A program made the translations under genes and the position numbers. The notes beneath the pieces were generated by a model. It was not told the DNA's origin. It ran no database searches and worked only from the letters and a program-made list of their open reading frames with translations. From positions 62,658 through 126,657 of the forward strand of contig JBGFRZ010000082.1 in assembly GCA_041694835.1 (NCBI GenBank): DNA of 64,000 nt, read 5' to 3'. Shown here in pieces: positions 1 to 33,396 of this stretch. This DNA comes from Ignavibacteria bacterium. Its GTDB lineage: Bacteria; Elusimicrobiota; Endomicrobiia; PHAN01. Numbering within the stretch: the stretch's first letter is position 1; the number at the start of each line of letters is the position of its first letter.

Positions 1-3000
1 CCATGATTTTTCTCTTAAAGCCATCTGCGTCTTCAGGACATAAAGTTGCCTGTCCAGAATCCTTACTTCATCGCGATTCGTTCCGACTAGAGCTTTTAGC
101 TTATGTTCTAACTCATCCCTCTTCCTATCAAGCGAATGTTTCTCGGCGGCATAATTCTGTGATGAGTTTTCAAACTTTGTTTTCATTTCATCTTCCAATA
201 CTTTTAGATTCTGCTGTCCAACTTTCAGTTTTTCTTCAACTTCGGATAACTCTTGCTCCTGCTTGATTTTTATGGCTTTCATCTGGTTTTCAAGATTTTC
301 TTTCCTTTTTTCAATTCTTTTGACGAACTGCTCATGCGATTGAAAATATGAATCTCTATTTTTTGTGTAATTATCCTCCTGTTCCTTCAATTTCGCATTT
401 AGTTCCTGAATCTGCTGCTGCCTTGTGGCAACCATCCCCGGATGTTTTTCTTCCAACTGCGCAAGTTCCATTTCATTCGATGTAATTTTGGAAATCAGCA
501 GTTCTTTGACTTTATTAAACTCGCTTTCCATATGATTCAACCTGGCTTTATACTCCTGTTCAAACCTCAAGTGGTCCGACTTAAGCTTTTCAATTTCACG
601 CTTTTTCTCCGCCAGCAACTCCGCATGGCGGGATTTCATCTCTTCCGATTCATTTTCAATCTTTTCTATTTCCTCATTTATGAGCTTTTTTTCATTTTCA
701 TTTTCTAACTCAAGAATTTTTATTTCTTTTTCATATTTGTGAATGTTGGTTTCACGAGATGCGTTTAAAAAAGTTATCTTGTTATCGAACTCTATTAAGA
801 TATCAGCATGTTTTTTTCTTGTTTCATCAAGTTTTTTTGAAGATTCTTCGAGTTTTTTTCTGACCAACTCAAGCTCCGCGCTTATTATGCTCTCCTTTTC
901 TTCTATCTCATATTTATTTGCCGAAATTAAATCATTCACTTTTTTACTTATCGCTTGTATATGTCTTTCGGACTCCGAAATTTCACTTTCGCATTTTTCT
1001 TTAAAAAAATTAAACCCGACTTTCGTCCTTTCAAGCGACTCTATCGCTATCTTCTTCTTGCCTTCAAGTTCAAAGCGGGTGGCGTCCAAATTTTTTTGTA
1101 ACACCGCTGTCTTTTCCAAAAGAACTTTTTCTAACTGATTGTTCTCATCGTTTTTCGCGCTTACGGTCTCATCAAATCTCTTTTGTTCTGAAATCACCAC
1201 ACTATTCAATTCCTCTATTTTAGCCTCAATACTTCCTTTTTCTTCTTTTAGTTTTACATTAAAACTTTCAAGCGCAAGAGAATGATTTTTCTTTTCATCT
1301 TCCATCTTTTGCATCAAAGACTGATGGACATTTTCAAGTTCCTTCATGTTTTTTGAATGTTCTTTTTCAAGCGATATTTTTTGAGAGTCAATCTCGTCTA
1401 TGTCGGCCTTTATTGAATCGATTTCGGCCGAGAGTTTATCGACTGACTGATGGTATCTACTTTCAAGCATATTTTCCTGATGGGCAAAACGTTGCTTCAA
1501 ACTTAAATAATCTCTTTCCTTTTCTGCCATCTTCTGCTTAAAATCCATCTCAAGACGCGCTTTTTTACTTTCAGCGACCTTCAGCTTTTCTTTATAAGGT
1601 TCAACTTCCACAAAAAGTTTCTTTTTAGCGTTCTCAAAAGACCTGGTGCTTTCCAAAAGTTCCGCTTCCACTGAATTTTTTGCGGCTTCAACCTGGGATT
1701 TCTTTTGAGAAAGAAGTGAAGAGTACTCCGTCTTTATTTTCGAAAAATCTTCCTGGAACTTTTGATATTTATCCTCGATGAGTTTTTTCTCCTCGGAAAG
1801 AATTTCAATTTGATGTTTATGTTGAAGATTCTTCTGTTCCTGGTTCGATTGCCAATCGTTTTTGAACTTTTCCATCTCTTCGTACTTTCCGGAGAGTTCA
1901 CTTTGATATTCTATTTTCTGGTTCAAAACTTCTTTTTCAAGATCAGTACATCTCAAAGAGATTCTCTTTTTTTCATTTTCAATATTTGTTTTGTATTTTT
2001 CTATTTCTGCGTTTTTCTCCCTTATCTTTATTTGAGCCTGGATTTTAATGTCTTCTATATCCTGATCCGCGACTCTTATCATATTCTCCCATTCGGATTT
2101 TTCCTGCTCATATTTCTGATGAAGCTCCTTGAGCTGTTTTTCAGCCAGAGATTTTGCCTCTTTGAACTCGTTGAAACGTTTTTCGCGAGCGGAACTTTCC
2201 TGCGTTTCCTGAAGCATCATGTCAATTTTTAGTTTATTGAAAGCATCTTCCCTCTCTTTCAATAGTTTCTCGTATTTCTCCTTTTCGGAAAGCGACTCCC
2301 TTTCCATCTCACTCATCTGAGCCACTAACTTTTCTTTTAAATCCTTAAGCAATATCTTTTTCGCATTCAGTTCCTGCTCATATATTATCTGACGCTGTTT
2401 CAAAGCCGAGCTGAATGCAAGCAATCCCTCTTTTTTATCGTTATAAATTTTCTGGAAGTTTGCTCTCATTTCGGAAAGATTTTTTTCAACACCATTCAAC
2501 TGATTATTGTAATTGCCTTCTAATTCTTTTTTCTCCCGATGAAATTTTTCCTCTTCCTGCCGGGACTGGTTGACTCTGAGGGATATCTGTGCTTTTAATG
2601 CCACGATTTCCTCTTCCCTGCCTTTCAGTCTTGTTACAAATTCCCCTATTTCCTGCTGTGCTTTTTTCTCGAAGGCAAGAAGCTGACTTTCTATCTCTCT
2701 TAATTCCTGAGTGGATGAAATTATCTCTTTTTCATCTTCGGCTTTTTTTTCGTTTTCCCTGGTTTGCAAATTTACTTTTGTTTCGTCTATCTCGGTTATG
2801 ATAGCTCTGATTTTTTGACCCCACTCTTTATCCTCTTCTTCTATCTTGCGCTCAACCCTTTGCAGTTCGTCATTCCATTTTTTTCTAAGCGAATTTATCG
2901 AGTCCTGATGAAGTTGCATGTTGTTTGAAAGTTCGAGTTCAACAAGTTCAAGATGGATGGAAAGTTTTATTTTTTCATCTTCTTTCTCTTTTTCTTTCTT

Positions 3001-3189
3001 CCTGTAATTTTCCCGCTCAACTTCGAGCATCTTTTCTATGTTTTCAAGTTGCTCACGCGCCGTTTTTTTTATGCTTTGTAAATCATGGCTGGCGGTAAGC
3101 TCTATCTTTTTCTCGTCGCACTCAATATCCGATGTCGCTTTTTTTTCGGCGACTGGTTCCTCTTTGTGTTTGATTAGCCACTTCCACAT
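1..3189 (-). CDS. Giant coiled-coil protein (>1063 aa, 3' end outside the window)
   Basis: ATG at 3189 after SD GGAGG (MWKWLIKHKEEPVAEKK...). The same frame reads E/K/Q/L-rich helical sequence at the window edge (...ILDRQLYVLKTQMALREKSW). Absent from the ORF track, consistent with no in-window stop. Confidence 0.85.
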   Translation of the reverse strand, partial: MWKWLIKHKEEPVAEKKATSDIECDEKKIELTASHDLQSIKKTAREQLENIEKMLEVERENYRKKEKEKEDEKIKLSIHLELVELELSNNMQLHQDSINSLRKKWNDELQRVERKIEEEDKEWGQKIRAIITEIDETKVNLQTRENEKKAEDEKEIISSTQELREIESQLLAFEKKAQQEIGEFVTRLKGREEEIVALKAQISLRVNQSRQEEEKFHREKKELEGNYNNQLNGVEKNLSEMRANFQKIYNDKKEGLLAFSSALKQRQIIYEQELNAKKILLKDLKEKLVAQMSEMERESLSEKEKYEKLLKEREDAFNKLKIDMMLQETQESSAREKRFNEFKEAKSLAEKQLKELHQKYEQEKSEWENMIRVADQDIEDIKIQAQIKIREKNAEIEKYKTNIENEKKRISLRCTDLEKEVLNQKIEYQSELSGKYEEMEKFKNDWQSNQEQKNLQHKHQIEILSEEKKLIEDKYQKFQEDFSKIKTEYSSLLSQKKSQVEAAKNSVEAELLESTRSFENAKKKLFVEVEPYKEKLKVAESKKARLEMDFKQKMAEKERDYLSLKQRFAHQENMLESRYHQSVDKLSAEIDSIKADIDEIDSQKISLEKEHSKNMKELENVHQSLMQKMEDEKKNHSLALESFNVKLKEEKGSIEAKIEELNSVVISEQKRFDETVSAKNDENNQLEKVLLEKTAVLQKNLDATRFELEGKKKIAIESLERTKVGFNFFKEKCESEISESERHIQAISKKVNDLISANKYEIEEKESIISAELELVRKKLEESSKKLDETRKKHADILIEFDNKITFLNASRETNIHKYEKEIKILELENENEKKLINEEIEKIENESEEMKSRHAELLAEKKREIEKLKSDHLRFEQEYKARLNHMESEFNKVKELLISKITSNEMELAQLEEKHPGMVATRQQQIQELNAKLKEQEDNYTKNRDSYFQSHEQFVKRIEKRKENLENQMKAIKIKQEQELSEVEEKLKVGQQNLKVLEDEMKTKFENSSQNYAAEKHSLDRKRDELEHKLKALVGTNRDEVRILDRQLYVLKTQMALREKSW

Positions 3190-3204
3190 ATTATTCCTCC
3201 GCTT

Positions 3205-5019
3205 TTATTTTCTTGATGCCTCGAGTTTTATCTGTTCAATAAAGTTTGACAGCTCCGTGTCATTTGGGTTTATGTTTAACACCGCTTCATAATTTGCAAT
3301 CGCTTCGTCATATCTTCCGAGAGCATAATATGAAGCGGCAATATAACTGTAGGCGTCGGTCAAAGTGTTGTCGATTGAAAGGACGTACTCAAGATAGCTT
3401 ATGGCATCCTCATAGTTTCCCGCTTCATAACTGGAGAGTCCTGCCTGATAGTAATCCGCAGCGTCACCTTCCGAAGGAGCGGCTTCTTCGTCAACAACCT
3501 CTTCACCCTCAAGAGCGCTGCTTTTCGGCTTTTCTCTTATAAAGATTTTACCGTCATCTTCAAGTTTTCTTATGACATCCATTATTTTCTTTCTTCCTTC
3601 TTCTGTCTGTAACGGCGTTACGGATTGGGTGTACTGCATTTCTTCTTGAATAAGTTGGACCGCGTTAGACGACATGTTGGCAAAAAACTTATTTACCACA
3701 TCCTGAGGCACTCCTTTGAGTGAGCGGGCAAGAAGTTCCGAATTTTTCAAATCTGGAAAGTTAAGTATTGTCTGCATCGTCTGATCCGTGAAGTTCTTAA
3801 TGTCATCAAACTTCAATATAAACTTTCTGACCCTGTCGTAGAGTTCCGGTTTTTCGTTCTGTAGATAATCCAGTATGTTGTCCCTTGTTACGTTGTCAAC
3901 CTGATCAAGCACTTTCAAAAGATGCTCTATGCCGCCTATTAGGAAGTCTATCTTTTCTTTTATGTCGTCGTCTATCTTCATTACCTTATCCCTCGTCATC
4001 TGTCTTATGGTCGCCATCTCTATGGCCACCTGCGACTGAACCTGCGCCGAAAGGCTGAGAAGTATCTCTTTGACATGCTCGGGTTTAAGATAACTTATTA
4101 CGAGAGCTATTATTCTTGCGCTTTCTTTCCTTATTAAATATATAAGTCTTTTAAGATTTTCGTCATCTACATAGTGAAACGGTTTGTACTTTTTTTTCTC
4201 CTCTTCCAGCGCTTCAAGCTCAGCCGCAGAAAGAGCGCCGCCTCCGCCTCCTCCTTCACCGCCTTCTGGCTCCCCCTCGGGGTTTTCGAATTTTGAATCC
4301 ACGGTAACTTCTGTTCCGCCCTTTTCCCTCATCGTTTTTACATATGCACGGAAAAAGCCAGCAAGAGGACCGAAAAGAAAAAATAAAAGAAGAAATGCTA
4401 TAACAAGAGGTATCAAAACAAGCGGCTTCAGCAGCTCTTCAAAAAATCCCGTCGTGAATTTTGTTTTCTTAAAATCTATCCGGTCACCGCGCTTTTGATC
4501 TATTCTGAGAGCGGAAGTAATAGCATCTTTTACGGCTTCAAGTTTCGACTCGGGAACTTTTTCATCGTGCAAAACAGTCACTATCTGTTTTTTCAGAGCA
4601 ATTTTGACCTCGACAGTTATTTTTTCCTGCTGGCCGGCCTCTTCTTTCGATTCGCCGACTTGATCCGCTTGAGAAACCGCTCTGGGCGCCGGAACACCCG
4701 GCAGCAGATACTCCACCTCGCCTATCGGCTTCTTTTTTTCGGCCTTTCTTTCCCTGACGAAGGTTTTTCTGGTTATCGTATCAAGACCGAATTCGACATC
4801 GACTATGGCTATCGCTTTATCCGGTCCAAGTATCCTGTCAAGGATGTCTTTCTGAACGTACTCCGTCTTTTCTTTTTCGTACTTGAGTTCATGTTCTATC
4901 AGTGAGATTTCCGCAGACTGCGGGGTCATCTGTCCATAAAGATAAACAAAAGAAGAAAGAGCCAGTAAAAGTGCCACCGCGCTTTGTTTCAAATTTTTAA
5001 GCTGTTTTAATTTTTTCAT
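3205..5019 (-). CDS. FliF-C(RBM3)-TM-FliG(M+C)-TPR fusion protein
   Basis: N-terminal hydrophobic/signal segment; FliF-C-like ILDRILGP..VDVEF..LPGVP..VTVLHD..KRGDRI; TM helix; FliG-like PFHYV..ESARIIALVISYL, GGIEHL, FFANMS..IRKLEDDGKI; C-terminal TPRs. Confidence 0.8.
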   Translation of the reverse strand: MKKLKQLKNLKQSAVALLLALSSFVYLYGQMTPQSAEISLIEHELKYEKEKTEYVQKDILDRILGPDKAIAIVDVEFGLDTITRKTFVRERKAEKKKPIGEVEYLLPGVPAPRAVSQADQVGESKEEAGQQEKITVEVKIALKKQIVTVLHDEKVPESKLEAVKDAITSALRIDQKRGDRIDFKKTKFTTGFFEELLKPLVLIPLVIAFLLLFFLFGPLAGFFRAYVKTMREKGGTEVTVDSKFENPEGEPEGGEGGGGGGALSAAELEALEEEKKKYKPFHYVDDENLKRLIYLIRKESARIIALVISYLKPEHVKEILLSLSAQVQSQVAIEMATIRQMTRDKVMKIDDDIKEKIDFLIGGIEHLLKVLDQVDNVTRDNILDYLQNEKPELYDRVRKFILKFDDIKNFTDQTMQTILNFPDLKNSELLARSLKGVPQDVVNKFFANMSSNAVQLIQEEMQYTQSVTPLQTEEGRKKIMDVIRKLEDDGKIFIREKPKSSALEGEEVVDEEAAPSEGDAADYYQAGLSSYEAGNYEDAISYLEYVLSIDNTLTDAYSYIAASYYALGRYDEAIANYEAVLNINPNDTELSNFIEQIKLEASRK

Positions 5020-5030
5020 ATATTTACCCT

Positions 5031-6665
5031 TTATCTAAGTTGGTTCAGGAACTGCGGAACCACTCTGTTTGTTGGATCTATTTCGAGCACCCGCATCCAG
5101 ACCTCTTTTGCTTTTTCCGGCTGATCCATCATAAAGAAAGCGCTTCCCATAATTTCGTAAGCTGTCACATGGTTCGGTTCAAGATTCAGCACTTCCTGGG
5201 CTTTAATAAGGGCTTTGTCATATTTGCCGTCTATTATGGCTTGTCTTGCGTCGAAGATCTTCTGATCTATTATAGTAAATCCTGCGATTGTTTCCTTGAA
5301 TGCTTCCGTAGGCGGGATGCCCATTTCTTTTTCAATCCTGTTCAACAAAGCAAGTAGCTTCATGTTCTCGGGTTTTTTGTAATAAGCATATCTGAAAGAG
5401 TTTATGGCGCCCGTGTCGTCGCCTTCTATATATGCTACAATCCCTTTTCTTGTCGCTACGGCATCTTCAGTATCTCCTACCACAGTGTCTATGTGACCTA
5501 TTATTACCTGTAGTTTTTTGGACATATTCTGTGCATCTTTATTGGCCGGGTCTATATCAAGAAGTTTTTCAAGTCGATTGTGGGAAAGAAGCATGTCTCC
5601 TTTTCTGTAGGATTCTATAGCTTCTTTCATAAGACGCACCACTATAGCCGCTCTGTTAGCGCTTACCGATTCCCCTATTTTCCACGAACCGGATATTCTA
5701 TGTGAAAGTCCGAGCTCATGCAAAGCAAACGCATAATCAAGCCCGTAATCTTTATATTTGAAACCAAAACCAGCGGTTGTCTCTCTTATTCTACCTTCGC
5801 CCTCGAATCCGAGACGCATGGCAAGATAATTCATAAGCCAGTATTCTGTCCCTATGTGCCAGCCGAGATTTGCGTTAAGCGATTTTTCAATATCAAACGC
5901 CAGTAAAAACTTTTTTTTCATAAACGGATGGGCCGCGCCGACTCTGAATATCATAGGAAGTTTGTCTTCCGTATCGCCAAAGCTCGTAGAAATTATGTTC
6001 CTGACACCGAAAGCAATTTTTATATCGGGCAACGTGTCATTTACTCCTTCAAGGAGCAGCGCAAGATCGAATGTTAGGGCTCCGCTTATAGAATCGGCCA
6101 GAGCATGGTTCATGTACTTCCCAGAAAGACCTATGGAGAGATTTTCTCTTATTCTTCTGCCGTATGCTGCCATTAAAGCCAGACGGGAATCTTCAAATGT
6201 GCCTAAATTTTCAATCTTAACTATGTCCTGTGTAGTTGGGTCTATGTTTATCGCTATTTTTTCAAAACCGCCCGAGTGGAGACGGACGATGTTTGCTCCG
6301 AAAACTCCCAACTTTGCGGTTGGATGCACATACGACAGAAAGTTATAGTTGGTATCGGCAAAAAGCGTGGCATGGAGAGCCATAACTTCTTTCCTGTCAA
6401 GCTGGGTCAGAGCTGCCGGATTCCAGTAAGTAGCGGAGGCATCGTCGGAAACCGCGAAAAACGCTTTTCCCATACCAAGTGATTTAGCGCCAGCACCCCA
6501 TGAAAGGAACTGCCCAGGCTGGCCGCCGGTGGCAGCGGCAAAGACAGAGGATAGCGGCGAGAGACAAGAGACGAGAGAACAAATAAAAACAAAAGCCATC
6601 CCTGACAAAGTTTTTGCGACTTTGTTCGCTAGTTTTGTCGAGAGTTTTGTTTTTGAATTTTTCAT
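5031..6665 (-). CDS. PorV/PorQ (UPF0164)-family beta-barrel protein with C-terminal TPRs
   Basis: Signal peptide, FLSWGAGAKSLGMGKAF..DDASATYWNPAAL, DYAF..LGLSHRIS barrel end, then TPR helices. Confidence 0.8.
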   Translation of the reverse strand: MKNSKTKLSTKLANKVAKTLSGMAFVFICSLVSCLSPLSSVFAAATGGQPGQFLSWGAGAKSLGMGKAFFAVSDDASATYWNPAALTQLDRKEVMALHATLFADTNYNFLSYVHPTAKLGVFGANIVRLHSGGFEKIAINIDPTTQDIVKIENLGTFEDSRLALMAAYGRRIRENLSIGLSGKYMNHALADSISGALTFDLALLLEGVNDTLPDIKIAFGVRNIISTSFGDTEDKLPMIFRVGAAHPFMKKKFLLAFDIEKSLNANLGWHIGTEYWLMNYLAMRLGFEGEGRIRETTAGFGFKYKDYGLDYAFALHELGLSHRISGSWKIGESVSANRAAIVVRLMKEAIESYRKGDMLLSHNRLEKLLDIDPANKDAQNMSKKLQVIIGHIDTVVGDTEDAVATRKGIVAYIEGDDTGAINSFRYAYYKKPENMKLLALLNRIEKEMGIPPTEAFKETIAGFTIIDQKIFDARQAIIDGKYDKALIKAQEVLNLEPNHVTAYEIMGSAFFMMDQPEKAKEVWMRVLEIDPTNRVVPQFLNQLR

Positions 6666-6701
6666 TTCATCAAACCCTGTCCTCTACTCTCTCCTCCGCT
6701 T

Positions 6702-7070
6702 TTAATGTATGACTCCAATTTTTCTTAAAGCCACTATCTTCCCGCCATCGACGGAAACCACACAGATATATCCGCCCTTGGCGACGTAATGACCGTTTTC
6801 GTCGCGACCGTCCCACAGGATTGTATCTCCAAAAAATTCGAGATGCTTGACGGGGCGGCCAAAAAGATCGAAAATTTTTACCGCAATTCCAACGTCGGTC
6901 TGATTTGATTTTTTTACAAGGATGCTTGTGGAAGTTTTTCTCGAATCGAACGGATTGGGATAGTTTGAAAGAAATATGTCAGAAGATGATGCGACGGATG
7001 CCGTCAACAAAAGAATTGATGAGGCGAAAGGGATAAGTAAAAGATAATTTAAAAAGTTGATGTGCTTCAT
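6702..7070 (-). CDS. Small secreted protein, FlgD-Ig / T9SS type A CTD-like domain
   Basis: Signal peptide followed by NYPNPF..IFDLFGRPV..WDGRDENG..VAKGGY..KIGVIH. Confidence 0.8.
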   Translation of the reverse strand: MKHINFLNYLLLIPFASSILLLTASVASSSDIFLSNYPNPFDSRKTSTSILVKKSNQTDVGIAVKIFDLFGRPVKHLEFFGDTILWDGRDENGHYVAKGGYICVVSVDGGKIVALRKIGVIH

Positions 7071-7072
7071 AA

Positions 7073-7219
7073 ATTGCCTTCGGTAACCCGGCCGCCATAA
7101 TCTCGCATTTTGCTTGATGTTAGGCCCGTATCCTGACCTATAGTCAGAATGACCCGATTCAACATCGGGATCGGCTTTGCGTCCTCCGGTTTCCCGGAGT
7201 TTGCCATTTATCGGACAAT
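7073..7219 (-). promoter_or_regulatory. c-di-GMP-I (GEMM) riboswitch, downstream copy, with a 43-nt two-hairpin insertion
   Basis: GGCAAACTCCGGGAAACCGGAGGACGCAAAGCC...ACGGGCCTAA...TATGGCGGCCGGGTTACCGAAGG; P1 ATTGTC/GGCAAT abuts the ATG at 7070. Confidence 0.85.
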
Positions 7220-7259
7220 CCTTACGTTTCCATCTCCGCCACGGCGGAAGGGGGCTATC

Positions 7260-7296
7260 AAAATAAAAATGCTACCGAACTTCCGCCCGGTAGCAT
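7260..7296 (-). terminator. Intrinsic terminator between the two riboswitch aptamers
   Basis: ATGCTACCG-ggcggaagtt-CGGTAGCAT followed by TTTTATTTT. Confidence 0.8.
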
Positions 7297-7371
7297 AAAG
7301 ATAGGGGGTCCTAAAACTTGTTGCAAACCACTACAACCGCAACCGCTAACAAATTAAACTTACTACACCTT

Positions 7372-7508
7372 CTCTCGGTAGCCCGGCCAGCTCCCCCGAC
7401 ATTATGTCGGGGGCATCGCTCCGATTTCCCGAAACGATTTTGATAGCCCCCTATCTTTAGCTCCGCGGCTTTGCGTCCTCCGGTTTCCCGAAGTTTGCCT
7501 TTATCGCA
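7372..7508 (-). promoter_or_regulatory. c-di-GMP-I (GEMM) riboswitch, upstream copy, enlarged P3
   Basis: GGCAAACTTCGGGAAACCGGAGGACGCAAAGCCGCGGAGCTAA...GCTGGCCGGGCTACCGA. Confidence 0.88.
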
Positions 7509-7511
7509 ATA

Positions 7512-7542
7512 TATATATAATAAAATTTATGACATTTGTCAA
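7512..7542 (-). promoter_or_regulatory. Sigma70-type promoter for the riboswitch operon
   Basis: Perfect TTGACA (7542-7537), about 17 bp spacer, AT-rich -10 (TATATA) just upstream of the aptamer. Confidence 0.6.
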
Positions 7543-7579
7543 GGTTTTTTTAACAGCCGAAATTCTGCCAAAAATTGCA

Positions 7580-8425
7580 CTAAACATTGTCTATCAGCCT
7601 TGTCCTGCCAACCTTGGCGGCTATCAGGATTCTTAAATTATTTTTCAGCGATATTCTCCCCTCAATATTCGTTAACGTTTTCGGATCGACAATTTCTACA
7701 TATTCAAGATTTATCCCGGAGATTTTTGAAACCGCTTTAGTTATATATTTTTTTACCGATACAATGTCTTTAAGATACCCCTCTGAAATTTTGACTTTCG
7801 CGTCCGATATCGCTTTATAAATTAATGCCGAATCTAATTTTTGACCCGTCGAAAGATATTTATTTCTGCTTGAAAACGCCAGTCCGAATTTTTCTCTTAT
7901 AGTCGGACACGAAATGATTTTCACGGGGATATTTAAATCATCTACCATTTTTTCTATGATTTTCAGTTGTTGAAAATCCTTCGTGCCGAAATACGCTCTT
8001 GTCGGTTGGATAATGTTAAACAGTTTTAAGACGACGGTTGTAACTCCGCGAAAATGTCCCGGGCGGAATTTTCCGCAAAGTATGTCTGAAAGATTTTTCA
8101 CTTCAACAAAAGTCAGATGCTCTTGTTTATAGATATCGTTTGTGGAAGGATAGAAAATTATGTCGACGCCAGTTTGTCGACAAATTTTTTTGTCTTGGCG
8201 AAATGTGCGTGGATATTTTTCAAAATCCTCGTTTTTGCCGAACTGCGCGGGATTTATAAATATCGAAACGACAACGAGAGCATTTTCTTTGCGAGCCCTT
8301 TTTATCAAAGAGAGATGTCCTTCGTGGAGCGCCCCCATCGTAGGGACAAAGCCGATTGTTTTGCCACACTTTTTAAGCTTTACAAAATATCTTTGGGCAA
8401 CAACGGGTGAAGTGATTATCTTCAT
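7580..8425 (-). CDS. panC: Pantoate--beta-alanine ligase
   Basis: GFVPTMGALHEGH, RPGHFRGV, GLAFSSRN, TRLIDN; start placed at MKIITSP because the ORF-track extension is heptamer-repeat DNA. Confidence 0.95.
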   Translation of the reverse strand: MKIITSPVVAQRYFVKLKKCGKTIGFVPTMGALHEGHLSLIKRARKENALVVVSIFINPAQFGKNEDFEKYPRTFRQDKKICRQTGVDIIFYPSTNDIYKQEHLTFVEVKNLSDILCGKFRPGHFRGVTTVVLKLFNIIQPTRAYFGTKDFQQLKIIEKMVDDLNIPVKIISCPTIREKFGLAFSSRNKYLSTGQKLDSALIYKAISDAKVKISEGYLKDIVSVKKYITKAVSKISGINLEYVEIVDPKTLTNIEGRISLKNNLRILIAAKVGRTRLIDNV

Positions 8426-8539
8426 TTTGAAACCGCTGAAAAACCTGTCAATAGTCCACAGTCCGCAGATTCTGTCGACCATCGACTATCGACTAAATTC
8501 TTTTGGGTGTCAGAAGGCCTTTTTCAATACCCTCATTTT

Positions 8540-8626
8540 ACAAATGTTCGATGCTTCAGACGATAAAAATCGACAATATTTAACAATGCTCCGACGATAA
8601 ATTCGAACAAATGTTCGAATTTTCAG
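8540..8626. repeat. Degenerate ~33-bp tandem repeat containing palindrome TTCGAACAAATGTTCGAA
   Basis: Units ACAAATGTTCG..CAGACGATAAA; the same palindrome and context recur at 49361-49412. Confidence 0.6.
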
Positions 8627-9499
8627 TCAGAGATTTTTGCTAAAAAATCTCGTTATTGTTTTCTTATACTCATCCGTATGCTCTATATAAGCTGTGCCAT
8701 GGCCGTGCGAATCGAAAACGACCAGTTCCTTGGGTTCCTCCGCTTTTTCATAAACCCTTTTTACCGCTTCAACCGGAATGTTTTCATCGCCAGAAGTAGC
8801 CAACAAAAGAACCGCTGTCGGCGAAACTTTCGATATATTTCGCATCGGAGAGTATCTCTCGGGCGAATGACCCAGGCGGATTATCGCACCCAGAATCGTA
8901 AGAACAACAAGTGGGTGCCGCGGGAGATTAAGAAAAAGTTTCGCATGGTGGGCTGTAATTTCGTTGAAAGAATCAAAAGGGCTTTCGGCCACAACTGCGT
9001 TTATTCTTTTGTCTTTGGAAGCAGCGTATATTGCAGCGACACCACCCATAGAAAATCCGAAAACGCCTATCTTCGCCGACAGAGAAGGTTTTTCCTCTTT
9101 GAGATATTTCACGGCTGAGAGCATGTCCTCAGATTCATATTTTCCCATGGAGGTTTTATTTCCGCCACTTTCTCCGTGATTCGTAAAATCGAAATATAGA
9201 AGATTGTAATGCTGATGGAGAAAAAATGTCGAATATAAAACATCGCCTTTAGAAGCGCCCCATCCGTGACAAATTATTATAGTTTTGGAAGTATTTTTCT
9301 GCGAAGTTATAAACCAACCTGATATTTTTCGTCTGCCGGATTTAAACTCTATTTTTTCAAAAGGAATTTTTAAGTTGTCCGGCGTTACATAATCTCTTAT
9401 GCGAGGTGCATTTAAAATTAAACGAGACGAAAACCATGCCCAAATTAAACAAGTGGTTAGAAAAATAAGTGCCCAAAAAACCGCAGGGTTGAGTTTCAA
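8627..9499 (-). CDS. Membrane-anchored alpha/beta hydrolase
   Basis: N-terminal TM, HGW, HGESGG, nucleophile elbow GFSMG, catalytic D/H region. Confidence 0.85.
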   Translation of the reverse strand: MKLNPAVFWALIFLTTCLIWAWFSSRLILNAPRIRDYVTPDNLKIPFEKIEFKSGRRKISGWFITSQKNTSKTIIICHGWGASKGDVLYSTFFLHQHYNLLYFDFTNHGESGGNKTSMGKYESEDMLSAVKYLKEEKPSLSAKIGVFGFSMGGVAAIYAASKDKRINAVVAESPFDSFNEITAHHAKLFLNLPRHPLVVLTILGAIIRLGHSPERYSPMRNISKVSPTAVLLLATSGDENIPVEAVKRVYEKAEEPKELVVFDSHGHGTAYIEHTDEYKKTITRFFSKNL

Positions 9500-9500
9500 T

Positions 9501-10901
9501 CTATATCTTCCCCCATGGTTTTCTTTTTACAAATCGCCCGTGTCCGACGGTGCCGGTAAATTTTCCGTCTTTCGCTACGATTTTTCCGCGAGAGATTGTA
9601 ACGGCGGGGTAACCTTTTAATTTCATACCCTGGAAAGGCGACCAGTCGCATCTGGTCTGCATATTATTAAAATCAATAACAACCCGTTTATTTGGGTCAA
9701 AGACGCAGATATCGGCGTCGGAGCCGACTTTGATTGTTCCTTTCTGAGGGTATAGTCCGAAAATTTTGGCGGGGTTCGTTGAGACGACTTCCACGAATCT
9801 GTTGAGCGAGAGTTTTTTCTTGTTAACACCCGCGGTAAATATCGTCGGAACCATCGTCTCAAGCCCCGGTATACCGAATGGAATTTTTGTAAAATCCCCC
9901 TGCCACATCGCTTTTTGTTTTGTGTCAAATGTGCAGGTGTCGGTTCCTATGGTGTCAATGTATCCTTTTTTCAATCCTTCCCAAAGACCCAGCTGGTCGT
10001 GTTTCTTTTTTACCTGCGGACAAATGCCGTAAAGGTGTCCCGTTTCCCTGGATTTATAAACATCGTCGGTCAAAAGGAGATAAGTCGGACAGGTCTCCGC
10101 CCATATTTTTACGCCGTCTCTTTTCGCCTCGCGCACAATCTCGGCGCTTTCCGACGCCGACATATGGACGATAAAAAGCCGTCCGCCCGTTTCTTTTGCC
10201 CAAGTCGCCGCGCGGCGGACCGCCTCGTATTCTGTATAACAAGGACGAGCCATCGCGTGAAGATAGGCGCCGTATTTATTCATCATCTCCTGCGTGTGGT
10301 ATCTCTCAATAAGGAGGTCCAGGACAATCGCACTCTCGGCGTGGACAAGGATTAGTCCTCCGTGTTTTGCCGTTTCCTCAAGCCCTTGAAAAAGTATTCC
10401 GTCGTCAGCCATCCAGCCCTGAGAGCGATAAATCATAAACATCTTAAAAGAGGTCACACCGTCCTTTACGAGGTCGCTCATATCTCTTCTCACATTCTCG
10501 TTCCACTTGGTTATTCCGCCGTGAAGAGCGTAATCCACGCACACTTTTCCGTCGGCTTCTTTCTTCCTCGCCTCAACGGTTTCAATAAGAGAACCCCCTT
10601 TGTCCTGTATGGCTATGGCGAAATCAATAACGGTGGTCACGCCGCCGCATGCCGCGGCTTTCGTGCCATTTTCAAAATCGTCGCATGAAACCGTTCCGCA
10701 AAAAGGCAGCTGCAAATGCACATGGGCATCAATCGCGCCGGGAAAAACAAGCAATCCCCTGGCATCGAGCATATGGGCGCCATCTGCTCTGATGTCTTTT
10801 TTGACCGAGACGACTTTCTCTCCTTTGATGGCGATGTCGGCAACAAATGTCTTTTCGGCAAGAACGATTTTTCCGCCTTTAACGACTAAATCAAATGACA
10901 T
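9501..10901 (-). CDS. hydA: Dihydropyrimidinase (D-hydantoinase)
   Basis: PGAIDAHVH, GTKAAACGGVTTVIDF, SFKMFM, DFTKIPFGIPG; SD GGAGG before the ATG at 10901. Confidence 0.92.
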   Translation of the reverse strand: MSFDLVVKGGKIVLAEKTFVADIAIKGEKVVSVKKDIRADGAHMLDARGLLVFPGAIDAHVHLQLPFCGTVSCDDFENGTKAAACGGVTTVIDFAIAIQDKGGSLIETVEARKKEADGKVCVDYALHGGITKWNENVRRDMSDLVKDGVTSFKMFMIYRSQGWMADDGILFQGLEETAKHGGLILVHAESAIVLDLLIERYHTQEMMNKYGAYLHAMARPCYTEYEAVRRAATWAKETGGRLFIVHMSASESAEIVREAKRDGVKIWAETCPTYLLLTDDVYKSRETGHLYGICPQVKKKHDQLGLWEGLKKGYIDTIGTDTCTFDTKQKAMWQGDFTKIPFGIPGLETMVPTIFTAGVNKKKLSLNRFVEVVSTNPAKIFGLYPQKGTIKVGSDADICVFDPNKRVVIDFNNMQTRCDWSPFQGMKLKGYPAVTISRGKIVAKDGKFTGTVGHGRFVKRKPWGKI

Positions 10902-11206
10902 AAAACCTCCTCTTAATATAGGCAAAGAAAAATAGGAAATAGGGAACGATGGAAAGAACGGTGCCAGATGTCAGATGCAGGTTAAAACGACAGATACACG
11001 TTGTAGCGGCACCGCCTTGCAGTGCAAATAATTGGCATCGTAAAGCTTGTCCTCGCAGGGGAACGATGCATCTACCTGTATTCTGTATTTGCTTTTCCTT
11101 TATCCTGCATCCTGTATCTGTTTTTTGGTATCCGGGATCCGGTATCCGCTATCGCTTTTGTCTGTTCTACTGCTCCGACCTCTGACCTCTCATCTCTGAC
11201 CTCTGT

Positions 11207-28490: not shown

Positions 28491-29495
28491 TCAAACATCG
28501 GAGACGGTAGTTCTGTTTCTCCCGAGCTGTTTTGATTTGTACAGCGCCTCGTCGGCGTTTTTTATCAGTTTCAGAGCGTCCATTTTGATTGAAGAGCCCG
28601 CGACGCCAGCCGATATCGTCACTTTAAGAACCCTGCCCTCATGGTTGAACATCGTCTCCGCTATACTTTCCCTAAGACGTTCGGCCCCTTGATGGGCGTC
28701 CGATATATGTGTCTGGGGCATTATGACCGCGAACTCCTCGCCGCCGTAGCGCGATTTTACATCTGAAAAACGGAAAGCGTCTTTCAGGAGCCTTGCTATT
28801 TCTTTTATTACAAAGTCGCCCGCGAGATGGCCGTAGCTGTCGTTGAACCTCTTGAAAAAATCTATGTCAAAAATCATAAGCGACAAATCCAATCCGTATT
28901 TTTGGGAAAGATTCAGCTCGTCGGCGAGTCTCTTTTTGAAATAATTCTGATTGTAAAGTCCCGTCATCGGCTCGCTCACGGTGACTTTTTCAAGCACAGC
29001 GTTTTTGAGTGACTTAGAGGCAAGAGCAGCCATTATCCTAAGCGTCTCTTTTTCAAAATTCGCAACATCATGGAGACTTAAAACCCCGAGATGTTCCTGG
29101 CGATGTGTCAGAGGTATTACAAGCAAAGAACCACCCTTAAGAGGCTTCGTCTGCTCCTGAAAGAATCTTTTGTATCTGCTATCGCTCGATACTTCGTGGA
29201 TAAATACTATATCGTTTACCTTAAGCGCCTCTCCCACAACTCCCTGCGACGGAGAAAGTCTGACCGTTTTCCATGCCGCGGGGGAAAGCCCGGATGCCGC
29301 CCTTACGCTTAAAAGTCCGTCTTCGTCCGGAACCATCAGAGATGCCTTTTTCGTTTTCGTAAACTCCATGAAACTCTCCACGATGGCTCCGACAAGACGC
29401 TCGTAGCATTTTGCGTTCCCTATCTTTTTTACAGCGTCAGAAAGCTCCTTATTGCCTTGAGAATCTTTCCGAAATAATCCTATTGATTTCAACAT
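28491..29495 (-). CDS. GAF-GGDEF diguanylate cyclase
   Basis: DIDFFKRFNDSYGHLAGD, I-site RFSD, RYGGEEF; start overlaps the phoA 3' end. Confidence 0.9.
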   Translation of the reverse strand: MLKSIGLFRKDSQGNKELSDAVKKIGNAKCYERLVGAIVESFMEFTKTKKASLMVPDEDGLLSVRAASGLSPAAWKTVRLSPSQGVVGEALKVNDIVFIHEVSSDSRYKRFFQEQTKPLKGGSLLVIPLTHRQEHLGVLSLHDVANFEKETLRIMAALASKSLKNAVLEKVTVSEPMTGLYNQNYFKKRLADELNLSQKYGLDLSLMIFDIDFFKRFNDSYGHLAGDFVIKEIARLLKDAFRFSDVKSRYGGEEFAVIMPQTHISDAHQGAERLRESIAETMFNHEGRVLKVTISAGVAGSSIKMDALKLIKNADEALYKSKQLGRNRTTVSDV

Positions 29496-33310: not shown

Positions 33311-33396
33311 GCCGGGGTGGCGGAACTGGCAGACGCAAGGGACTTAAAATCCCTCGGGGGGCAACCTCCATGTGGGTTCGATTCCCACCCTCGGCA
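33311..33396 (+). tRNA. tRNA-Leu(TAA), CCA not encoded
   Basis: Acceptor GCCGGGG/CCTCGGC, D-arm TGGCGGAACTGGCAGACGC, anticodon arm AGGGA-CTTAAAA-TCCCT, long variable arm, GGTTCGATTCC. Confidence 0.95.

What the first reader, a model, noticed from the sequence alone, without database searches (positions are those of the whole stretch)
1..7542. Candidate undescribed envelope machine: c-di-GMP-riboswitch operon with a FliF-FliG-TPR fusion, PorV-like barrel and giant coiled coil
Seen: one promoter and a tandem c-di-GMP-I leader precede four closely spaced genes (11-36 bp gaps): secreted FlgD-Ig/CTD-like protein, PorV/UPF0164 barrel-TPR, FliF-C/FliG/TPR fusion, and a >1063-aa coiled coil. No fliE/fliH/fliI/fliM/motAB/flg genes are in the window. 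Known: FliF RBM3 forms the MS ring, FliG builds the C ring, and PorV shuttles CTD-bearing cargo in T9SS. Inference: flagellar ring modules have been repurposed and combined with T9SS-like outer-membrane parts and a filament/scaffold into a c-di-GMP-controlled secretion, motility or cell-shape apparatus.
Basis: partly seen in the sequence, partly recalled or inferred. Interest (0 to 1): 0.9.

Follow-up and report, generated by a model that had tools for sequence, protein, structure and literature searches.

The report
Flagellum-free rotor-stator envelope machine operon
A bacterium without flagella keeps a fused flagellar rotor protein in one c-di-GMP-switched operon with an outer-membrane barrel that holds surface proteins and with giant coiled-coil proteins, which points to flagellar motor parts reused in an undescribed cell-envelope machine.

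Summary
Two c-di-GMP-I aptamers lead a minus-strand operon. In the window it encodes a stand-alone sorting-tail protein, a PorV-family barrel with TPR, a FliF(RBM3)-FliG(MC)-TPR fusion, and a coiled coil that is 1616 aa in full. Five more genes follow left of the window; none is flagellar.

The 97%-complete Elusimicrobiota genome gave no match to FlhA, flagellin or the FliF N-terminal family. It has a paralogous barrel/fusion/MotA/MotB/MotB operon and an orphan flbD-motA-motB cassette.

In 80 related loci the order barrel then fusion is near-universal. A c-di-GMP aptamer motif lies upstream in 44 of 60 A-type loci, and MotA lies downstream in 28 of 48. One rotor-stator charge pair (MotA R90 / FliG D288-D289) is kept on both proteins. 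The other (E98 / R281) is lost on both.

Best reading: a MotAB-driven FliF/FliG ring coupled to an outer-membrane anchor for surface proteins. Its output is unknown; I favour gliding-type adhesin movement.

Six literature searches found no description. Earlier notes of this scan describe the same system in this genome and at least seven others.

The parts
7537..7542 (-). -35 hexamer TTGACA of the operon promoter, followed 17 nt later by an AT-rich -10 region (TATATA)
   Evidence: Read directly. The consensus scan reports a neighbouring, weaker hexamer pair at 7535-7508.
7373..7508 (-). c-di-GMP-I clan aptamer 1, with a 60-nt insert in its second stem
   Evidence: Rfam RF03167, 60.0 bits (gathering 59), E 1.2e-11, full model 1-80.
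7259..7296 (-). Intrinsic-terminator-like hairpin (12 pairs, 6 G-C) plus T-run. Probable expression platform of aptamer 1.
   Evidence: In the minimum-free-energy fold the hairpin forms beside a long-range helix that joins the aptamer insert to 7311-7297.
7079..7215 (-). c-di-GMP-I aptamer 2. It ends 9 nt before the ATG, and the GAAGG Shine-Dalgarno-like motif lies inside its 3' end.
   Evidence: Rfam RF01051, 45.2 bits (gathering 35). The fold pairs 7221-7214 with 7080-7073.
6702..7070 (-). A1: 122-aa secreted protein made only of a signal peptide and a sorting-tail (CTD) domain
   Evidence: 44% identity (E 5e-18) to the C-terminal ~100 aa of the 2278-aa protein of the paralogous locus; both end in KIGVIH. 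Family models all below cut-off.
5031..6665 (-). A2: PorV/PorQ-family 14-stranded outer-membrane barrel with a ~210-aa C-terminal TPR-like helical domain
   Evidence: NF033709, 140.5 bits against cut-off 90. AF2 model pLDDT 85, with 14 strands at 92-330 and 11 helices at 334-543. Best solved folds are chain F of T9SS entries 8gl6 (E 2.3e-13) and 6h3i (E 2.7e-11), ahead of FadL.
3205..5019 (-). A3: fusion of N-terminal helix, periplasmic FliF RBM3/collar-like domain (~37-196), TM helix (199-233), Gly/Glu-rich linker, FliG middle and C-terminal domains (289-494) and TPR (519-603)
   Evidence: Pfam. PDB sequence search: T. maritima FliG 1lkv, E 2.7e-30. AF2 model pLDDT 82. Foldseek: FliG E 2.8e-11; FliF S-ring/RBM3 entries 8z5v, 8z4g, 6sd1 at E ~1e-4; FliG_C of the MotAB-FliG complex 8ucs_H, TM 0.91.
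1..3189 (-). A4: first 1063 aa of a 1616-aa cytoplasmic coiled-coil protein with a C-terminal TPR-like end. The gene runs 1661 bases beyond the left window edge.
   Evidence: No signal peptide and no Pfam family apart from a weak TPR_16 match. Counterparts of 1550-2100 aa sit in the same position in 15 related loci.

Best explanation
The window holds the head of a ~20-kb operon for a non-flagellar, envelope-spanning machine built around the torque-generating core of the flagellar motor.

Shown:
- The parts listed below and their domain make-up.
- Their conserved order across the phylum.
- No match to flagellar export-gate or filament genes.
- The riboswitch leaders.

Inferred mechanism:
1. The FliF(RBM3)-FliG(MC)-TPR fusion assembles into an inner-membrane ring. 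Its FliG C-terminal domains face the cytoplasm.
2. Proton-driven MotA5B2 stators push on that ring through the retained MotA-R90 / FliG-D288-D289-type charge pair. In this genome the stators are encoded apart: flbD-motA-motB on contig C54, and motA-motB-motB in the paralogous operon on C81. In many relatives they lie inside the same operon.
3. The periplasmic collar of the ring contacts the TPR domain hanging from the PorV-type outer-membrane barrel.
4. The barrel holds a protein by its sorting tail. Here that protein is a tail-only stub. In the paralogous locus and in many relatives it is a 2300-2800-aa adhesin-like protein.
5. The cytoplasmic TPR and the giant coiled-coil proteins tether, space or guide the rotor units.

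Output and control:
- The output I think most likely is powered movement of surface proteins, that is, gliding-type motility or active handling of adhesins.
- Expression is gated by c-di-GMP at two levels: aptamer 1 with a terminator, and aptamer 2 overlapping the ribosome-binding site.
- I lean towards repression at high c-di-GMP, but the sign is not established.
For: Parts and absence of a flagellum:
- Domains and folds.
- Own genome (97% complete): FHIPEP, Flagellin_N and YscJ_FliF all gave no match, and each control rang in 4 of 14 known genomes.
- Phylum sample: FliG_C in 175 of 401 genomes, FlhA in only 9 of 401.

Conserved context in 80 related loci:
- PorV-like gene directly upstream: A-type 60 of 64, B-type 5 of 5.
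- MotA downstream within the flank: A-type 28 of 48, B-type 4 of 4.
- FlbD directly before MotA: 24 of 42 MotA genes, all in A-type loci.
- Aptamer motif upstream on the gene strand: A-type 44 of 60. All 53 motif hits, in 47 of 80 loci, lie on the gene strand.

Rotor-stator interface, with E. coli MotA and FliG as anchors:
- MotA R90 position is K or R in 40 of 40 fusion-linked MotAs.
- FliG D288 position is E in 79 of 83 fusions.
- MotA E98 position is Q in 37 of 40.
- Its partner, the FliG R281 position, is G, N or S in 83 of 83.
- These pairings are as stated in the introduction of PMC12505986.

Other points:
- The essential MotB Asp32 is kept in the C54 MotB and in one of the two C81 MotBs.
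- The Gly-Gly hinge of FliG is invariant in the family (G362, G363).
- Barrel and fusion keep 78% and 70% amino-acid identity to the nearest relative although synonymous sites are saturated.
- At least 7 GGDEF genes show that the organism makes c-di-GMP.
Against: - No experiment, image or transcript supports assembly or rotation. No sequencing run was listed.
- This operon carries no motAB of its own. Assigning the C54 cassette to it rests only on its FlbD, which is typical of A-type loci. The C54 MotA is unresolved in the tree, and it has E, not Q, at position 98.
- Contact between the collar and the barrel's TPR is pure inference. The complex prediction could not be run.
- PF08345 is marginally below its cut-off.
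- The fusion is not a FliG equivalog (TIGR00207, 115.6 bits against cut-off 226.7). The FliM-binding EHPQR motif is not kept (H126 in 0 of 76, R160 in 0 of 76).
- In flagella a rod passes torque outward. No rod homologue is in the operon, so how rotation would reach the outer membrane is unknown.
- RNAalifold gave no support for a stem that hides the start codon, so the sign of c-di-GMP control is open.
Confidence: 0.55

Rival explanations
1. The machine is the energiser of a T9SS-like export or attachment route. The MotAB-driven FliF/FliG ring stands in for the GldLM/PorLM motor. It powers export or outer-membrane loading of tail-bearing proteins through PorV-like shuttles, not their movement afterwards.
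For: - Tail-bearing cargo genes sit next to the barrel gene.
- The barrel's nearest solved folds are chain F of the T9SS translocon entries.
- The operon also carries a type-B-tail protein followed by a PorP/PorV-like barrel.
- The genome has one 1713-aa ORF with weak SprA-like segments and gave no GldM match.
- 16 of 19 tail hits in the genome lie within about 1.5 kb of a PorV-family hit. A general tail/barrel system therefore exists and would need energy.
Against: - Only 2 of the 29 PorV-family hits in this genome are linked to a fusion gene.
- PorV-family barrels persist in the two large families that almost lack FliG_C: f2 has PorV in 50 of 89 genomes and FliG_C in 1 of 89; f20 has PorV in 101 of 118 and FliG_C in 2 of 118.
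- The GldM search is uninformative, because its control rang in none of the 14 known genomes.
Confidence: 0.22
2. It is a static trans-envelope scaffold or adhesion complex. The FliG-like and FliF-like domains serve only as ring-building or protein-binding modules. They link a cytoplasmic coiled-coil skeleton to outer-membrane anchors (cell shape, polarity, attachment). MotAB is not functionally coupled to this copy.
For: - This operon has no stator genes.
- Its giant coiled coils (1616 and 1015 aa) dominate the coding length.
- In the 20 A-type loci without MotA in the flank, 15 have a coiled-coil gene of 1550 aa or more next to the fusion.
- R281 and the EHPQR motif are lost.
Against: - The acidic pair of the torque helix and the Gly-Gly hinge stay conserved in this subgroup too.
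- The same fusion family is co-operonic with FlbD-MotA-MotB in most other lineages.
- The genome keeps an orphan flbD-motA-motB with Asp32 intact.
Confidence: 0.15
3. The genes are decaying remnants of a lost flagellum, or parts of a divergent true flagellum.
For: - 9 of 401 genomes of the phylum do encode FlhA, so flagella exist in the phylum.
- The ISME J 2025 survey (PMC12199754, passages read) notes rotor genes without filament genes in 11% of non-motile species.
Against: - The frames are intact.
- The family is found in 92 of 123 genera sampled, with fixed neighbours and a dedicated riboswitch.
- Barrel and fusion are strongly conserved although synonymous sites are saturated.
- There is no match to the export gate, flagellin or the FliF N-terminal family.
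Confidence: 0.04

Closest known systems
Core of the bacterial flagellar motor (FliF MS-ring, FliG, MotA5B2 stator, FlbD/SwrD)
   Same: - RBM3/collar-like periplasmic domain between two membrane helices.
- FliG middle and C-terminal domains with the Gly-Gly hinge and the acidic pair of the torque helix.
- MotA, MotB with plug, Asp32 and an OmpA-like domain, and FlbD encoded in the same operon in relatives and elsewhere in this genome.
   Different: - No RBM1/RBM2, no FliG N-domain (replaced by covalent fusion), and no FliM-binding EHPQR motif.
- No export gate or flagellin found. No rod, hook or filament gene lies in the operon.
- An added C-terminal TPR.
- Partners are a PorV-type barrel, tail-bearing surface proteins and giant coiled coils.
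- Controlled by c-di-GMP riboswitches.
Chlamydiaceae FliF-FliG fusion protein (Bergeron 2016, PeerJ, PMC4768692; passages read)
   Same: A natural fusion of a shortened FliF with a FliG-like cytoplasmic domain in bacteria regarded as non-flagellated.
   Different: - The chlamydial protein is ~330 aa and carries only a FliG-M-like region. The paper discusses it in relation to the injectisome, and it sits beside FlhA and FliI-type genes.
- The protein here has FliG M and C domains plus TPR. It is linked to MotAB/FlbD and a PorV-type barrel, and the genome gave no FlhA match.
- Only a weak hit to the chlamydial-type model was seen (NF004606, 20.8 bits, cut-off 297).
Type IX secretion / Bacteroidota gliding machinery (GldLM motor, SprA translocon, PorV shuttle, SprB adhesin with SprF)
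   Same: - A PorV-family 14-stranded barrel next to tail-bearing cargo.
- A type-B tail protein followed by a PorP/PorV-like barrel.
- An ion-driven 5:2-type motor in the inner membrane as the presumed power source.
   Different: - The motor is MotAB acting on FliG, not GldLM.
- No GldM match, though the control was silent.
- SprA-like matches are below cut-off.
- The PorV barrel carries its own TPR domain.
- The phylum is Elusimicrobiota, not Bacteroidota.
Myxococcus Agl-Glt gliding complex (recalled from general knowledge; AglRQS is named as a 5:2 motility motor in PMC12204202, passages read)
   Same: A MotAB/TolQR-type motor coupled to a trans-envelope complex with outer-membrane barrels, TPR proteins and a cytoplasmic coiled-coil protein, moving a surface adhesin.
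   Different: No sequence relationship was tested or seen. Agl-Glt has no FliF or FliG modules and no PorV/sorting-tail pair.
c-di-GMP-I riboswitch ahead of the Clostridioides difficile flagellar operon
   Same: A class I c-di-GMP aptamer placed ahead of a long operon for a motility-type apparatus, with a transcription terminator as platform.
   Different: - Here there are two aptamers in tandem with two different platforms.
- The operon is non-flagellar.
- The direction of control has not been determined.

Membership tests
FliG (flagellar motor switch protein, TIGR00207 / PF14842+PF14841+PF01706) | Full-length equivalog score | tested here: not met
   TIGR00207 scores 115.6 bits against cut-off 226.7 and matches only model positions 99-329.
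FliG (flagellar motor switch protein, TIGR00207 / PF14842+PF14841+PF01706) | Middle and C-terminal domains | tested here: met
   FliG_M 49.9 bits (cut-off 25) and FliG_C 86.2 bits (cut-off 23.3). 1lkv E 2.7e-30. 1qc7_B TM 0.93, rmsd 1.3.
FliG (flagellar motor switch protein, TIGR00207 / PF14842+PF14841+PF01706) | N-terminal domain that binds the FliF tail | tested here: not met
   The only FliG_N match (28.3 bits) overlaps the M domain at residues 304-387. The TM helix is joined to FliG_M through a disordered linker.
FliG (flagellar motor switch protein, TIGR00207 / PF14842+PF14841+PF01706) | EHPQR motif that binds FliM | tested here: not met
   H126 in 0 of 76 and R160 in 0 of 76 family members; E125 in 68 of 76 and P127 in 62 of 76.
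FliG (flagellar motor switch protein, TIGR00207 / PF14842+PF14841+PF01706) | Charged torque-helix residues facing MotA (E. coli K264, R281, D288, D289, R297) | tested here: inconclusive
   D288 position is E in 79 of 83 and D289 position is E in 62 of 83. R281 position is R or K in 0 of 83, and R297 is mostly T. The pattern is half kept. MotA E98, the partner of R281, is lost in parallel.
FliF (MS-ring protein, PF01514 + PF08345) | RBM1/RBM2 (YscJ_FliF, PF01514) | tested here: not met
   No match in the protein or anywhere in the genome.
FliF (MS-ring protein, PF01514 + PF08345) | RBM3/collar domain between two membrane helices | tested here: inconclusive
   PF08345 scores 23.6 bits against cut-off 23.8, covering the whole profile 1-147. 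The predicted fold matches FliF S-ring/RBM3 chains at E 1e-4 to 9e-4, probability 1.00, TM (target) 0.44-0.59. Ring formation was not tested.
PorV/PorQ family (NF033709) and T9SS PorV proper (NF033710) | Family-level model over cut-off; 14-stranded barrel | tested here: met
   NF033709 scores 140.5 bits against cut-off 90. The model has 14 strands. The top solved folds are 8gl6_F and 6h3i_F.
PorV/PorQ family (NF033709) and T9SS PorV proper (NF033710) | Equivalog of the T9SS shuttle PorV | tested here: not met
   NF033710 scores 51.2 bits against cut-off 250. Pfam PorV scores 13.7 bits against cut-off 27.
Type IX secretion system | Core parts SprA/Sov, PorU, GldK/L/M/N present in the genome | tested here: inconclusive
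   SprA gave four weak segments in one 1713-aa ORF, all below cut-off. PorU gave only tail-region hits. GldM gave no hit, but its control rang nowhere. GldK, GldL and GldN were not searched.
T9SS type A sorting domain (TIGR04183 / PF18962) | Model over cut-off in the 122-aa protein | tested here: not met
   TIGR04183 scores 21.9 bits against cut-off 23. PF18962 scores 15 against 27. FlgD_ig scores 17.1 against 27. The protein is homologous to the tail of the 2278-aa protein.
c-di-GMP-I riboswitch clan (CL00126) | Covariance-model score over the gathering threshold, full-length match | tested here: met
   RF03167 scores 60.0 bits (gathering 59) and RF01051 scores 45.2 bits (gathering 35), both as full models. 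Ligand binding is not testable here.
MotA/MotB stator (for the genome's partner cassettes) | MotA_ExbB plus MotA_N; MotB plug, conserved Asp32 and OmpA-like domain | tested here: met
   Asp32 is kept in the C54 MotB and in C81 MotB1; C81 MotB2 has Asn. These MotAs group apart from the genome's ExbB/TolQ-like proteins (support 100).

The most novel reading that the evidence does not exclude
Elusimicrobiota carry an autonomous ion-driven rotary engine: a FliF/FliG ring with FlbD-MotAB and no export apparatus, rod or filament. It passes force across the periplasm to PorV-type barrels and so moves giant surface adhesins. That would be a new kind of motility or surface-handling organelle. It might also be a living relative of the motor module from which, or beside which, the flagellum was built.
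Probability: 0.3. Interest if true: 0.95.

Novelty: categorically new. Interest (0 to 1): 0.85.

Why it matters
FliG is known as the part of the flagellum on which MotAB stators push. A conserved, regulated FliG-MotAB pair working without a flagellum would be another use of 5:2 ion motors, beside flagella, Ton/Tol, Agl-Glt, GldLM and Zor. It would also be the first in which the flagellar rotor itself is reused.

- It gives a concrete answer to the question posed in the ISME J 2025 survey (PMC12199754): what are rotor genes doing in non-motile species?
- It bears on how the flagellar motor core evolved.
- It may explain how a phylum that mostly lacks flagella (FlhA in 9 of 401 sampled genomes) moves or handles its giant surface proteins.
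- The riboswitch ties the machine to c-di-GMP lifestyle switching and offers a simple experimental handle.

Tried and rejected
Complex prediction. I wanted to test the barrel's TPR domain (residues 334-544) against the fusion's periplasmic domain (36-196). It was never accepted because the queue was full, so there is no result.

Expression. No sequencing run was listed for window 3000-7600, so there are no expression data.

Direction of riboswitch control:
- By eye, the 5' flank of the single aptamers can pair with the AUG-CCC start region.
- RNAalifold on 25 sequences did not predict that stem. It supported only the internal aptamer stems, with 6 pairs showing compensatory changes.
- The direction of control is left open.

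dN/dS against three relatives. Synonymous sites are saturated and dS could not be computed for 14 of 15 gene pairs. Only dN and amino-acid identity are usable.

Protein-atlas look-up of the conserved N-terminal 340 aa of the 1015-aa coiled coil gave only generic eukaryotic coiled-coil clusters below 0.9. It is uninformative.

MotA tree. The careful search did not finish and a quick tree was used. The orphan C54 MotA falls in an unresolved polytomy, so the tree cannot assign it to the A-type clade.

The GldM search is uninformative because its control was silent.

Literature searches of the held library found no paper describing a FliF-FliG/MotAB/PorV system or a c-di-GMP riboswitch in Elusimicrobia. 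The word-start search for 'FliG' mostly hit unrelated words. Supplementary files were not opened.

Rejected reading: an ordinary fliF/fliG at the edge of a flagellar cluster.

Full report
**What is in the window**

All features lie on the minus strand.

- A perfect -35 hexamer TTGACA (7542-7537), with an AT-rich -10 region 17 nt later, sits just after the stop of panC.
- Two Rfam matches over their gathering scores follow: aptamer 1 at 7508-7373 (RF03167, c-di-GMP-I clan, 60.0 bits) and aptamer 2 at 7215-7079 (RF01051, 45.2 bits).
- Between them lies a terminator-like hairpin of 12 pairs with a T-run (7296-7269).
- Aptamer 2 ends 9 nt before the first ATG (7070). Its 3' end contains the GAAGG motif.

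Four genes follow, with gaps of 36, 11 and 15 bp. I call them A1 (122 aa), A2 (544 aa), A3 (604 aa) and A4. A4 runs off the window.

**The proteins**

A1 is a signal peptide plus one domain.
- The sorting-tail and FlgD-Ig models all score below their cut-offs.
- The domain is 44% identical (E 5e-18) to the last ~100 residues of a 2278-aa surface protein encoded in a paralogous locus. Both end in KIGVIH.
- A1 is therefore a sorting tail without a passenger.

A2 passes the PorV/PorQ family model (140.5 bits, cut-off 90) but not the PorV equivalog model.
- Its AF2 model (pLDDT 85) has 14 strands and then 11 helices.
- Its nearest solved folds are chain F of the T9SS translocon entries 8gl6 and 6h3i, ahead of FadL.

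A3 has the following make-up.
- An N-terminal helix.
- A periplasmic alpha/beta domain with two ~20-residue strands. PF08345 scores 23.6 against 23.8. Foldseek matches FliF RBM3/S-ring chains at about 1e-4, probability 1.00.
- A membrane helix, then a disordered Gly/Glu linker.
- FliG middle and C-terminal domains (1lkv E 2.7e-30; 1qc7_B TM 0.93; the FliG_C chain of the MotAB-FliG complex 8ucs_H TM 0.91).
- A TPR end.

A4 has no signal peptide and no family match.

**Beyond the window**

The window is C84:62658-126657 of a 1.9-Mb, 89-contig genome that is 97% complete. Earlier scan notes and the names of all named relatives place it in Elusimicrobiota.

Left of the window A4 continues to 1616 aa with a TPR-like end. 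These genes follow on the same strand, overlapping or nearly so:
- a 1015-aa coiled coil;
- a 183-aa coiled coil;
- a 1212-aa Fn3-repeat protein with a type-B T9SS tail (CHU_C, 45.1 bits);
- a 513-aa PorP/PorV-like barrel with LysM;
- a 693-aa protein made of a coiled coil, a membrane helix and a C-terminal domain.

After a 317-bp gap come DUF4416 and SMC. There is no flagellar cluster.

**No flagellum, but stators**

The genome gave no match to FHIPEP (FlhA), Flagellin_N or YscJ_FliF. The controls rang in 4 of 14 known genomes.

FliG_C occurs twice: A3 and a paralogue on contig C81. The C81 locus reads as follows:
1. a 2278-aa surface protein with an FlgD-Ig-like tail;
2. a barrel-TPR protein, 33% identical to A2;
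3. a 543-aa FliG_M/FliG_C protein, 32% identical to A3 over the FliG part;
4. a small inserted 23S-IVP-type gene;
5. MotA, MotB, MotB;
6. an 1115-aa protein.

A third stator set lies on C54: FlbD (91.6 bits), MotA, MotB. MotB Asp32 is kept in the C54 MotB and in the first C81 MotB. The second C81 MotB has Asn.

**Conservation**

A protein search found 108 full-length relatives of A3 at 30-79% identity. Every named one came from Elusimicrobia or Endomicrobia, or was labelled just 'bacterium'. The next hits are ordinary FliGs.

A scan of one genome per species returned 85 relatives, of which 80 loci were kept. All are Elusimicrobiota or unnamed-phylum MAGs. I labelled ORFs in these loci by phmmer against this genome's proteins and counted only loci with enough flank.

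| Feature | A-type (TPR-bearing) | B-type |
|---|---|---|
| PorV-like gene directly upstream of the fusion | 60 of 64 | 5 of 5 |
| Tail-bearing protein within 3.2 kb upstream | 30 of 60 | 5 of 5 |
| MotA downstream within the flank | 28 of 48 | 4 of 4 |

- Of the 20 A-type loci without MotA, 15 have a coiled-coil gene of 1550 aa or more next to the fusion, as here.
- FlbD lies directly before MotA in 24 of 42 MotA genes, all in A-type loci. This is a lower bound.
- The N-terminal ~300 residues of the 1015-aa coiled coil are conserved in 58 ORFs across the loci.

The common core across the phylum is therefore: aptamer, barrel-TPR, fusion, one or two coiled coils, FlbD, MotA, MotB. The window shows a variant with giant coiled coils, an extra surface-protein module, and the stator cassette moved elsewhere.

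**The riboswitch is part of the system**

A strict motif for the aptamer core was found in 47 of 80 loci (53 hits). Every hit is on the gene strand and upstream of the fusion.
- It is present in 44 of 60 A-type loci with at least 3 kb of upstream flank, and in 0 of 5 B-type loci.
- Rfam at gathering threshold found one further aptamer among 7 motif-negative loci.
- Six relatives share the tandem arrangement.
- In 25 aligned single-aptamer loci the aptamer ends 5-12 nt before the barrel gene's start codon. That points to translational control.
- The own genome has only three motif hits: the two here and one on C89.
- It has at least 7 GGDEF genes.

I could not settle whether c-di-GMP turns the operon on or off. 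I lean towards off, because the ribosome-binding region is folded into or against the aptamer.

**Evidence for a working rotor-stator interface**

The anchors were E. coli MotA and FliG taken from the annotated K-12 record. The known pairs are R90 with D288/D289 and E98 with R281 (introduction of PMC12505986, passage read).

- The MotA R90 position is K or R in 40 of 40 fusion-linked MotAs.
- The FliG D288 position is E in 79 of 83 fusions, and D289 is E in 62 of 83.
- The MotA E98 position is Q in 37 of 40.
- Its FliG partner R281 is G, N or S in 83 of 83.

One pair is kept on both proteins and the other is lost on both. That is what co-evolving partners would show. One long-branch MotA row was left out of this tally.

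The orphan C54 MotA has K and E. The Gly-Gly hinge is invariant. The FliM-binding motif is not kept (H126 and R160 each in 0 of 76). That fits a rotor without FliM, although FliM and FliN were not searched for.

**Distribution**

In 401 sampled genomes of the phylum:
- FliG_C occurs in 175 genomes, covering 92 of 123 genera.
- FlhA occurs in 9.
- Two large families almost lack FliG_C (1 of 89 and 2 of 118). In the rest it occurs in 171 of 193.
- PorV-family barrels occur in 345 of 401, including 50 of 89 and 101 of 118 genomes in those two families.
- The barrel family therefore does not depend on the fusion.

Within this genome, 16 of 19 tail-type hits lie within about 1.5 kb of a PorV-family hit. 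The pairing of tail-bearing cargo with its own barrel is a general theme. Only two such pairs carry the rotor module.

**Reading**

I think the most likely explanation (0.55) is a MotAB-driven ring of the FliF/FliG fusion, coupled through the periplasm to the TPR domain of a PorV-type barrel that holds a surface protein by its tail. Cytoplasmic coiled coils would serve as tether or track, and c-di-GMP gates expression.

The parts, their order, the lack of any match to flagellar export or filament genes, and the regulation are shown. Ring formation, rotation, the periplasmic contact and the output are inferred.

The rivals are:
- an energiser for T9SS-like export (0.22);
- a static scaffold in which the FliG part no longer meets a stator (0.15);
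- a relic or a divergent flagellum (0.04).

**Comparison with what is known**

The closest known things are:
- the flagellar motor core;
- the natural FliF-FliG fusion of Chlamydiaceae (PMC4768692, passages read), which is much shorter and has no stator link;
- the T9SS/gliding apparatus, which uses a different motor.

A3 fails the membership tests for FliG proper (equivalog score, N-domain, EHPQR) and for FliF proper (no RBM1/2). It is built from flagellar modules, not a member of either family.

Six full-text searches found no description of the system. The ISME J 2025 survey only remarks that rotor genes without filament genes might have another function (PMC12199754, passages read).

Earlier notes of this scan reached a similar reading for this genome and for at least seven other Elusimicrobiota genomes. 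From them I took one lead, FlbD, and tested it here.

**Limits**

- Everything rests on sequence, predicted structure and gene context in metagenome-assembled genomes.
- ORF calling in GC-rich loci was crude: longest ORFs, labels by phmmer at E up to 1e-5. The neighbourhood counts are therefore lower bounds.
- The complex prediction could not be run, and no transcript data were available.

Noticed in passing
G000 contig C81:209-17209 (locus L005): Paralogous operon without a riboswitch match. It encodes a 2278-aa surface protein with a sorting tail, a barrel-TPR protein, a 543-aa FliG_M/FliG_C protein, MotA, two MotBs and an 1115-aa protein of no family. The second MotB has Asn where the proton-accepting Asp32 should be.
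   Followed up: partly
G000 contig C81:10753-11136 (L005): A 127-aa 23S-rRNA-intervening-sequence-type protein gene (PF05635, 109.8 bits) is wedged between the FliG-like gene and motA. An earlier scan note describes such cassettes elsewhere in this genome.
   Followed up: no
G000 contig C54:30504-32207 (L111:4505-6208): Orphan flbD-motA-motB cassette, preceded by two ORFs of 473 and 463 aa with no Pfam match and followed by pyruvate phosphate dikinase. This MotA keeps both the R90-type and E98-type charges.
   Followed up: partly
whole genome G000: 29 PorV-family hits (11 over cut-off). 16 of 19 sorting-tail hits lie within about 1.5 kb of one. The genome seems to encode many 'cargo plus own barrel' gene pairs.
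   Followed up: partly
G000 contig C72:~16471-19437: One 1713-aa ORF with four weak, collinear matches to the SprA translocon model, all below cut-off. It may be a divergent SprA-like protein.
   Followed up: no
G000 contig C65:16247-23352 (L112): Another module: a 1676-aa protein with CarboxypepD_reg domains and an FlgD-Ig-like tail, then a PorV-like barrel, then an ExbB/TolQ-type MotA_ExbB protein of 206 aa.
   Followed up: no
G000 contig C89:~21308 (minus strand; L115): This is the genome's third c-di-GMP aptamer-core motif. It lies just upstream of a 178-aa ORF with no Pfam match and a 263-aa HEAT-repeat protein. It was not confirmed with Rfam.
   Followed up: partly
window 7458-7447 and 7308-7297 (minus strand): A 12-nt stretch inside the insert of aptamer 1 (AAAGAUAGGGGG) is perfectly complementary to a stretch ending just before the terminator hairpin. 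The minimum-free-energy fold joins them into a 15-pair long-range helix. It may be part of the switch.
   Followed up: partly
window ~28512-28970 (minus strand): A GGDEF-domain gene (144.7 bits, open frame 339 aa) lies about 21 kb from the riboswitch operon on the same contig.
   Followed up: no
window 33311-33396 (+): An 86-nt tRNA with a long variable arm (Rfam tRNA, 55.8 bits).
   Followed up: no
window 7580-10925 (minus strand): Directly upstream of the operon lie panC, an alpha/beta hydrolase and an amidohydrolase. An earlier scan note treats this as a pyrimidine-breakdown cluster. It is unrelated to the machine.
   Followed up: no
loci L096, L102, L103: The accessory module of this operon recurs as a block downstream of the fusion in three distant relatives. 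The block is an Fn3 protein with a type-B tail, a PorP-like barrel with LysM, a ~316-aa ORF, and a protein like the C-terminal part of the 693-aa gene.
   Followed up: partly
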